A stretch of DNA of 40,572 nt from assembly GCF_003334355.1 (NCBI RefSeq), contig NZ_QOWP01000032.1. One strand, given 5' to 3'. Numbering within the stretch: position 1 is the first letter of the stretch; each line of letters opens with the position of its first letter. The DNA comes from Escherichia coli (GTDB lineage: Bacteria > Pseudomonadota > Gammaproteobacteria > Enterobacterales > Enterobacteriaceae). Shown here piece after piece: positions 39,498-39,880 of this stretch. A program made the translations under genes and the position numbers. The notes under the pieces were generated by a model. That model saw only the letters and a program-made list of their open reading frames with translations. It was not told the DNA's origin and ran no database searches.

Positions 39498-39690
39498 TTA
39501 ACAACAGCCTTCTTCTGTATGCAGCAAGGCAAAAAGTTCTGTAACTCCATTGTTATTAACTGCACTGGTTACTAACACGTTGTGCGCTCCAGCTTCCCGT
39601 AACCAACTCTTCACCAAAGATATTTGTTCCATGCTGGCTAAATCTGCTTTGGTTACTACTCCAATGACCGGGTGATTCATGGCCCGGTAG
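39498..39690 (-). pseudogene. C-terminal fragment of a EutP/PduV-family GTPase-like protein (yoeF-like prophage remnant)
   Basis: Minus-strand translation ...VIGVVTKADLASMEQISLVKSWLREAGAHNVLVTSAVNNNGVTELFALL resembles EutP/PduV C-termini; the upstream part of the track ORF runs antisense through an IS66 fragment and is probably not coding. Confidence 0.35.
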
Positions 39691-39880
39691 GGCGTTTTTA
39701 CCTCTAATTCCTGCTTCAGCGCTGAGATTCCTGCTTGTTGCCGGAAAAGCAGGCACCTGCCGTCTGAACGGTATCGATCCGGAAGCGTATCTGCGCCATA
39801 TTCTGAGCATACTGCCGGAATGGCCCTCCAACCGTGTTGACGAACTCCTGCCATGGAACGTAGTTCTCACCAATAAATAA
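39668..39880 (+). mobile_element. 3' remnant of an IS66-family transposase gene
   Basis: Plus-strand translation ...FLLVAGKAGTCRLNGIDPEAYLRHILSILPEWPSNRVDELLPWNVVLTNK* resembles the conserved C-terminus of IS66 transposases; no start or N-terminal domain is present. Confidence 0.5.

What the first reader, a model, noticed from the sequence alone, without database searches (positions are those of the whole stretch)
39498..39880. Back-to-back gene remnants: EutP/PduV-like C-terminal fragment and IS66 transposase 3' fragment
A minus-strand fragment resembling the C-terminus of a EutP/PduV-type GTPase abuts a plus-strand fragment encoding the conserved C-terminus of an IS66-family transposase. 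Neither has a start or N-terminal domain. This marks a decayed insertion or prophage junction next to yeeX; K-12 carries the CP4-44 prophage remnant at about this position.
Basis: inference. Interest (0 to 1): 0.45.

Follow-up and report, generated by a model that had tools for sequence, protein, structure and literature searches.

The report
Dead pduV and IS66 gene stubs
Next to the E. coli gene tmaR/yeeX lie two dead gene stubs, the tail of the propanediol-microcompartment GTPase gene pduV and the tail of an IS66-type jumping gene; both are real, but they are ordinary and already named in E. coli K-12 (yoeF and yoeD).

Summary
On the minus strand, 39498-39680 is the last 60 codons plus stop of pduV. 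It matches Pfam PF10662 (7.6e-13) and is 97% identical in DNA to intact pduV, in the same position beside tmaR. On the plus strand, 39752-39880 is the last 42 codons plus stop of an ISEc23-like IS66-family transposase (PF13817, 1.8e-15). That stub runs on to the element's true right end at 39910.

Two corrections are needed. The stubs do not abut: 71 bp of unassigned DNA (39681-39751) separates them. The IS remnant ends at 39910, not 39880.

In K-12 MG1655 these are yoeF (b4538), yoeD (b4642, pseudogene) and the annotated CP4-44 edge, which maps to window 39681. Of 5,426 complete E. coli genomes, 3,330 carry the same scar. Another 644 keep pduV-pduU, with the rest of the pdu operon shown in one of them. 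Another 633 carry a different truncation.

The pduV stub is native chromosome, left when the pdu cluster was lost. The IS66 stub is the edge of the island and IS debris that replaced it. Neither can function: one lacks its P-loop, the other its DDE domain and left end.

Already known; low interest.

The parts
39068..39397 (+). tmaR (yeeX), the intact neighbouring gene. It is convergent with the pduV stub and anchors the synteny.
   Evidence: Annotated tmaR / DUF496 in the matching RefSeq records and in K-12.
39411..39439 (.). Perfect 13-bp-stem hairpin between the stop codons of tmaR and the pduV stub. It is probably a shared bidirectional terminator (inference).
   Evidence: RNA fold -22.9 kcal/mol, z = -5.65, 0 of 200 shuffles as stable. 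It is conserved in every locus compared, including strains with intact pduV. The simple terminator scan did not flag it because there is no T-run.
39498..39680 (-). pduV 3' remnant: the last 60 codons plus stop, residues 88-147 of a 147-aa PduV. It keeps the TKAD (G4) motif. It lacks the P-loop GPSQCGKTS and the DTPG motif.
   Evidence: PF10662 i-E 7.6e-13. TIGR02528 scores 42.3 bits against a cut-off of 138.35. Window 39380-39680, which takes in the stub and the intergenic DNA up to tmaR, is 97.0% identical in DNA and gap-free to an intact pduV locus (L004). PGAP annotates exactly this interval as an EutP/PduV family protein.
39681..39751 (.). 71-bp spacer of unassigned origin. K-12 annotation counts it as the last bases of CP4-44.
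   Evidence: It is not in the intact pdu-cob region, nor elsewhere in the window or in K-12 CP4-44. It is shared with 633 genomes, where it runs on into a degraded IS110-family transposase gene.
39752..39880 (+). IS66-family (ISEc23-like) transposase tnpC 3' remnant: the last 42 codons plus stop. This is pseudogene yoeD (b4642) of K-12.
   Evidence: PF13817 i-E 1.8e-15. All IS66 hits start at query position 255, which is window 39752. The stub is 99.4% identical to an IS66 copy on a plasmid (L006) and 96.9% identical to ISEc23. The yoeD coordinates map exactly onto it.
39881..39910 (+). Right terminal inverted repeat of the IS66-family element. Its outer end is ...CGCTTAC at 39910.
   Evidence: The last 40 bases up to 39910, which include the end of tnpC, are identical to the right end of a complete 2,532-bp ISEc23 copy (L008 1128-3659). 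That copy is flanked by an 8-bp duplication GATAAATT. Its left end begins GTAAGCGTAAACTGACC.
39498..39854 (-). Chimeric 118-aa ORF, yoeF (b4538) of K-12. Its first 58 codons are read antisense through the IS66 stub and the spacer. Its last 60 codons are the pduV stub.
   Evidence: The ORF is listed. K-12 yoeF has the same length and position. Only residues 57-112 match any family.
40496..40572 (+). Context only: the first 77 bp of an IS2 element, cut by the end of the window.
   Evidence: 100% identical to the end of K-12 IS2F.

Best explanation
The interval holds two non-functional gene relics at the border of a replaced chromosomal segment.

(1) 39498-39680 (minus) is the 3' end of pduV, the terminal gene of the propanediol-utilisation microcompartment operon. 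It remains in its native position, convergent with tmaR/yeeX, and keeps the shared intergenic hairpin. The rest of pduV and the pdu operon were lost from this lineage.

(2) 39752-39910 (plus) is the last 159 bp of an ISEc23-like IS66-family insertion sequence: 42 codons of the TnpC transposase plus the right inverted repeat. This is 6% of a 2,532-bp element. It forms the edge of the CP4-44-type island and IS debris that now lies between tmaR and cobU.

A 71-bp spacer of unknown origin lies between the two stubs.

Inferred order of events: pduV was first broken at codon 87/88 and joined to foreign DNA (the spacer lineage, seen extended in 633 genomes). Later a deletion that ended inside an IS66 element removed the element's left 2,373 bp and the DNA between it and the spacer.

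Neither stub can work. The PduV piece lacks the GTP-binding P-loop and the G3 motif. The IS66 piece lacks the DDE catalytic domain, tnpA, tnpB and the left inverted repeat.

Shown: the identities, the breakpoints, the synteny and the distribution. Inferred: the order of events and the lack of expression.
For: - Family matches.
- The breakpoints are fixed by three independent comparisons. Intact pduV homology ends at 39680. IS66 homology starts at 39752 and ends at 39910. The K-12 CP4-44 edge maps to 39681 and yoeD to 39752-39880.
- Native position: a strain with an intact operon has tmaR | pduV pduU pduT ... pduA | pduF pocR | cobUST. The tmaR-pduV intergenic DNA there is the same, 97% identical.
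- Distribution in 5,426 complete genomes: 3,330 carry pduV'-spacer-IS66'. 633 carry pduV'-spacer-IS110'. 644 carry pduV 5' plus pduU.
- Other lineages have independent breakpoints, for example strain AW1.7, where the stub is followed by cobU about 180 bp later.
- The P-loop and DTPG motifs are present in the intact protein and absent from the stub.
- The complete ISEc23 reference has an 8-bp target duplication, which validates the IS end.
- No sigma-70-like promoter and no Rfam family were found in 38900-40572.
- Changed codons in the stub are non-synonymous as often as synonymous or more. Examples: 3 synonymous and 3 non-synonymous against the intact gene; 4 and 10 against AW1.7, which also has an in-frame stop.
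- A published table gives 7 nucleotide and 5 amino-acid differences for yoeF between STEC lineages (PMC5359238).
Against: - RefSeq K-12 lists yoeF as a CDS ('putative uncharacterized protein'), not as a pseudogene, and the ORF is intact in the window.
- The origin of the 71-bp spacer is unresolved, so the first truncation event is not reconstructed.
- The substitution counts are too small for a formal test of relaxed selection.
- The promoter scan is a simple consensus scan. Read-through from the island side was not tested.
Confidence: 0.95

Rival explanations
1. yoeF (the 118-aa ORF 39498-39854, or the 60-aa ORF 39498-39680) is a live gene. Its product, a free-standing C-terminal piece of a PduV-type GTPase, would have acquired a function of its own.
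For: The ORF is open in the window and in K-12, where RefSeq lists it as a CDS. PGAP also annotates the 60-aa version as a protein. The sequence is at least 99% conserved in thousands of genomes.
Against: - The first 58 codons are antisense IS66 plus spacer sequence and match no family.
- The G1 and G3 GTPase motifs are missing.
- The score is far below the family cut-off, 42.3 against 138.35 bits.
- There is no promoter-like site.
- No Shine-Dalgarno sequence precedes the ATG at 39680, and only a weak GGTGAG lies 11 nt before the ATG at 39854 (read from the sequence).
- Other lineages carry different upstream fusions or an in-frame stop.
- Non-synonymous changes are at least as frequent as synonymous ones.
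- The high identity is no more than the flanking genes show.
Confidence: 0.04
2. The GTPase fragment was brought in as cargo of the CP4-44-type island or by the IS66 element. It would then not be a relic of a resident pdu operon.
For: It lies directly beside mobile-element debris. EutP/PduV genes occur in horizontally transferred microcompartment loci (general knowledge).
Against: The stub and the whole intergenic region up to tmaR are collinear and 97% identical with strains that keep pduV as the last gene of a complete pdu operon at this locus. K-12 annotation places the island edge outside the stub. Lineages with no IS66 and no island still have the stub.
Confidence: 0.02
3. The fragment derives from eutP, of the ethanolamine-utilisation operon, rather than from pduV.
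For: Pfam and NCBIfam models do not separate EutP from PduV. One record labels it 'ethanolamine utilization protein' (H6).
Against: 57 of 60 residues are identical to the PduV encoded next to pduU and pduT at the same locus.
Confidence: 0.01

Closest known systems
E. coli K-12 MG1655 yoeF (b4538), yoeD (b4642) and the right edge of cryptic prophage CP4-44
   Same: The DNA is the same: window 39380-39912 is 99.4% identical to K-12, with 3 mismatches and no gaps. The yoeF ORF is the same 118 aa, yoeD covers the same interval, and the CP4-44 edge lies at the pduV breakpoint.
   Different: Immediately beyond the IS66 right end (after 39912) K-12 continues into yeeW-cbtA-cbeA. The window continues into 585 bp that are absent from K-12 CP4-44, then an IS2.
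PduV, the small GTPase encoded by the last gene of the E. coli pdu operon (EutP/PduV family, PF10662 / TIGR02528)
   Same: The C-terminal 60 residues are 95% identical to it, in the same position and orientation relative to tmaR.
   Different: Residues 1-87 are missing, including the P-loop and the DTPG motif. No pdu genes remain in the window.
ISEc23, an IS66-family insertion sequence of 2,532 bp (tnpA, tnpB, tnpC)
   Same: The last 159 bp are 96.9% identical, and the last 40 bases up to the IS end are identical. An unnamed IS66-family copy is 99.4% identical.
   Different: Only 6% of the element remains. There is no tnpA, tnpB, DDE domain or left inverted repeat.

Membership tests
EutP/PduV family GTPase (PF10662, TIGR02528) | Full-length match above the curated family score | tested here: not met
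   TIGR02528 scores 42.3 bits against a cut-off of 138.35. Only profile positions 86-141 of 142 are matched. Pfam covers positions 86-142 of 143.
EutP/PduV family GTPase (PF10662, TIGR02528) | P-loop (G1, GxxxxGK[ST]) and DxxG (G3) nucleotide-binding motifs | tested here: not met
   Intact PduV has GPSQCGKTS and DTPG in residues 1-87. The stub starts at residue 88.
EutP/PduV family GTPase (PF10662, TIGR02528) | G4 motif ([NT]KxD) and the C-terminal region | tested here: met
   TKAD is present, and 57 of 60 residues are identical to intact PduV.
EutP/PduV family GTPase (PF10662, TIGR02528) | Encoded within a microcompartment (pdu or eut) operon | tested here: not met
   No pdu genes lie beside it in the window. 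The orthologous position in intact strains is the end of the pdu operon.
IS66 family insertion sequence | DDE transposase TnpC of full length | tested here: not met
   NF033517 scores 12.6 bits against a cut-off of 180. Only the last 42 codons are present.
IS66 family insertion sequence | IS66 C-terminal element (PF13817) | tested here: met
   i-E 1.8e-15, model positions 4-39 of 39.
IS66 family insertion sequence | Accessory genes tnpA and tnpB upstream of tnpC | tested here: not met
   The DNA upstream of 39752 is the spacer, the pduV stub and tmaR. The complete ISEc23 has tnpA and tnpB.
IS66 family insertion sequence | Terminal inverted repeats beginning GTAAGCG, at both ends | tested here: inconclusive
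   The right repeat is present and identical to that of ISEc23, ending at 39910. The left repeat is absent from the remnant.
IS66 family insertion sequence | 8-bp target-site duplication | not testable with these tools
   Only one end survives. The reference ISEc23 copy shows GATAAATT on both sides.
CP4-44 cryptic prophage border (K-12) | Same junction sequence beside tmaR as in MG1655 | tested here: met
   Window 39380-39912 aligns to MG1655 at 99.4% without gaps. The annotated edge 2078748 maps to window 39681.
CP4-44 cryptic prophage border (K-12) | Island content beyond the junction (yeeW, cbtA, cbeA ... flu) | tested here: not met
   Window 39911-40495 has no match in the K-12 CP4-44 region. 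The rest lies beyond the end of the window.

The most novel reading that the evidence does not exclude
The chimeric yoeF ORF is kept open in K-12 and in this window, and 3,330 of 5,426 complete genomes carry the DNA it lies in. It might be translated into a small protein whose PduV-derived C-terminal half has been put to a new use. One example would be interference with microcompartment GTPases after the pdu locus is reacquired by transfer.
Probability: 0.03. Interest if true: 0.35.

Novelty: already known. Interest (0 to 1): 0.07.

Why it matters
It matters little beyond correct annotation. The scar is a clean marker of how the pdu(-cbi) cluster between tmaR and cobU was lost in most E. coli and replaced by an island and IS debris. 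The same breakpoints occur in 61% of complete genomes, while 12% keep pduV-pduU and 12% carry a different truncation. The locus can therefore serve as a lineage and recombination marker beside the O-antigen/his region. The analysis also shows that yoeF, still listed as an uncharacterised protein in K-12, is a chimeric ORF over two relics and should be treated as a pseudogene.

Tried and rejected
- Rfam scans of window 38900-40572 and of the IS110-type extension in L003 found no family.
- A promoter and terminator consensus scan found no sigma-70-like site. Only two weak terminator-like sites turned up, both unrelated to the stubs.
- Origin of the 71-bp spacer. Local blastn against the intact pdu-cob region, the whole window and K-12 CP4-44 gave only chance-level hits. 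A distant search of plasmids with the L003 extension found IS110-family relatives, but they align only from 173 bp beyond the pduV break. The spacer therefore could not be assigned to that IS.
- NCBIfam on the two ORFs in 39911-40495 gave no hits.
- The repeat finder missed the imperfect IS66 inverted repeats. They were located by searching for the GTAAGCG motif instead.
- I considered an eutP origin and prophage-cargo status for the GTPase stub. Synteny and identity reject both.
- I did not run the costly genome or metagenome collection scans, the large protein searches or structure prediction. The annotated E. coli collection already answered the question.

Full report
**What is in the sequence.** The end of the window is the E. 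coli sbmC-yeeA-tmaR(yeeX) region. Downstream of tmaR (39068-39397, plus strand) lies a perfect 13-bp-stem hairpin at 39411-39439 (-22.9 kcal/mol, z = -5.65).

**The pduV stub.** On the minus strand, 39498-39680 translates to MNHPVIGVVTKADLASMEQISLVKSWLREAGAHNVLVTSAVNNNGVTELFALLHTEEGCC*.
- It matches Pfam PduV-EutP (PF10662) over model positions 86-142 of 143, i-E 7.6e-13.
- It matches NCBIfam TIGR02528 at 8.1e-11, but with 42.3 bits against a curated cut-off of 138.35. It is therefore a partial match only.

**The IS66 stub.** On the plus strand, 39752-39880 translates to GTCRLNGIDPEAYLRHILSILPEWPSNRVDELLPWNVVLTNK*. It matches the IS66 C-terminal element PF13817 over positions 4-39 of 39, i-E 1.8e-15.

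**Exact anatomy.** Three independent comparisons fix the breakpoints.
- Strain Z1323HEC0067 carries an intact pduV (147 aa). The window is collinear with it and 97.0% identical from 39380 to 39680, and unrelated beyond. The stub corresponds to residues 88-147. The P-loop GPSQCGKTS and the DTPG motif of the intact protein lie in the missing part, and only the TKAD motif is retained.
- All IS66-family hits in 5,426 complete E. coli genomes begin at window 39752 and end at 39910. The best is 99.4% identical (L006). ISEc23 copies are 96.9% identical.
- A complete ISEc23 (L008 1128-3659, 2,532 bp, tnpA-tnpB-tnpC) is flanked by the 8-bp duplication GATAAATT. Its last 40 bases are identical to window 39871-39910, read inward as GTAAGCGTCAACGGAGCACCGTATTGACGC....

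The IS remnant is therefore the last 159 bp of the element, inverted repeat included, and ends at 39910 rather than 39880.

**The spacer.** Between the stubs lie 71 bp (39681-39751) that belong to neither. They have no counterpart in the intact pdu-cob region, in the rest of the window or elsewhere in K-12 CP4-44. They are shared with a second locus type found in 633 genomes. There they continue for about 380 bp into a degraded IS110-family transposase gene. I could not show that the spacer is the end of that element.

**Already known.** Window 39380-39912 aligns to K-12 MG1655 at 99.4% without gaps.
- The 118-aa ORF 39498-39854 is yoeF (b4538, 'putative uncharacterized protein').
- 39752-39880 is the pseudogene yoeD (b4642).
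- The annotated right edge of cryptic prophage CP4-44 (2078748) maps to window 39681, the first base after the pduV homology.
- PGAP labels the same intervals 'EutP/PduV family microcompartment system protein' and 'transposase domain-containing protein, incomplete' in thousands of RefSeq genomes.
- yoeD is drawn as a pseudogene beside CP4-44 in PMC5526668.
- yoeF is listed among CP4-44 y-ome genes in PMC11551758.

**What it is and how it arose.** In a strain that keeps the operon the layout is tmaR | pduV pduU pduT ... pduA | pduF pocR | cobalamin riboswitch | cobU cobS cobT. So pduV is the terminal gene of the pdu operon, convergent with tmaR. The stub in the window is that gene's 3' end left in place. 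It is native chromosome, not prophage cargo.

Among 5,426 complete genomes the locus types are:

| Locus type | Genomes |
|---|---|
| pduV'-spacer-IS66' scar (as in the window) | 3,330 (61%) |
| pduV'-spacer-IS110' | 633 |
| pduV 5' part plus pduU retained | 644 |

Further lineages have their own breakpoints. In strain AW1.7, for example, the stub is followed by cobU about 180 bp later.

The two spacer-bearing types share the pduV breakpoint. I therefore infer that pduV was first broken at codon 87/88 and joined to the spacer lineage. Later a deletion ending inside an IS66 element removed the element's left 2,373 bp and the intervening DNA. This order is inference. The identities and breakpoints are shown.

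**Function.** None is expected.
- The PduV piece cannot bind nucleotide.
- The IS piece has no catalytic domain, no accessory genes and only one end.
- The yoeF ORF is a chimera. Its first 58 codons are read antisense through the IS66 stub and the spacer and match nothing.
- No sigma-70-like promoter and no Rfam family were found in 38900-40572.
- Codon changes in the stub are non-synonymous at least as often as synonymous. Examples are 3 and 3 against the intact gene, and 10 non-synonymous to 4 synonymous against AW1.7, which also has an in-frame stop.
- This agrees with the 7 nucleotide and 5 amino-acid differences tabulated for yoeF between STEC lineages in PMC5359238.
- The counts are small, so this evidence is supportive, not decisive.

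**Differences from K-12.** The window and K-12 part company within 2 bp of the IS66 outer end.
- K-12 goes on to yeeW-cbtA. The window goes on to 585 bp (39911-40495) that are absent from K-12 CP4-44 and have no family hits.
- The first 77 bp of an IS2 follow, 100% identical to the K-12 IS2F end.
- The nearest complete genome is strain PSS-12, 100.0% identical over 16000-40572. Its IS2 sits at 40140-40144 instead, with a 5-bp duplication. An IS66-type left end follows 24 bp after the equivalent of 40495.

The area is an IS graveyard.

**Verdict.** Novelty: already known. Interest is low. The only novel reading left open is that yoeF is expressed and functional, which I put at about 3%.

Noticed in passing
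window 39911-40495: 585 bp lie directly after the IS66 right end. They are absent from K-12 CP4-44. In another genome (L002) they lie beyond a 712-bp yeeW/cbtA' piece. In strain PSS-12 an IS66-type left end (GTAAGCGTAAACTGACC...) follows them 24 bp later. ORFs 40010-40312 (+) and 39907-40104 (-) have no NCBIfam match.
   Followed up: partly
window 40496-40572: The first 77 bp of an IS2, 100% identical to the K-12 IS2F end, are cut by the end of the window. The otherwise identical genome PSS-12 has its IS2 at 40140-40144 with a 5-bp duplication. The IS2 position is therefore strain-specific.
   Followed up: partly
window 39411-39439: A perfect 13-bp-stem hairpin (z = -5.65) lies between the convergent tmaR and pduV stub. 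It is conserved in strains with intact pduV and is probably a shared bidirectional terminator. It has no T-run, so the simple scan missed it.
   Followed up: partly
window 38952-39002 (+): The 16-codon [19 protein letters not shown] maps onto the K-12 small-protein gene yoeJ (b4818), between yeeA and tmaR.
   Followed up: no
L009 (NZ_CP148378.1 3053300-3098000), locus 576-19147: A strain with a complete pdu operon next to tmaR has lost the cbi genes. An orphan cobalamin riboswitch and a hypothetical ORF sit directly before cobU.
   Followed up: no
L003 5184-6665: An alternative scar is found in 633 genomes. The same pduV breakpoint and 71-bp spacer continue into about 380 bp of unassigned DNA and a frameshifted IS110-family transposase gene. 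IS30 and IS1 copies follow. There is no Rfam hit in the non-coding tail.
   Followed up: partly
window 1-37000: The rest of the window is the sbcB-plaP-his-gnd-ugd region, preceded by further large ORFs that I did not identify. This stretch was not examined.
   Followed up: no
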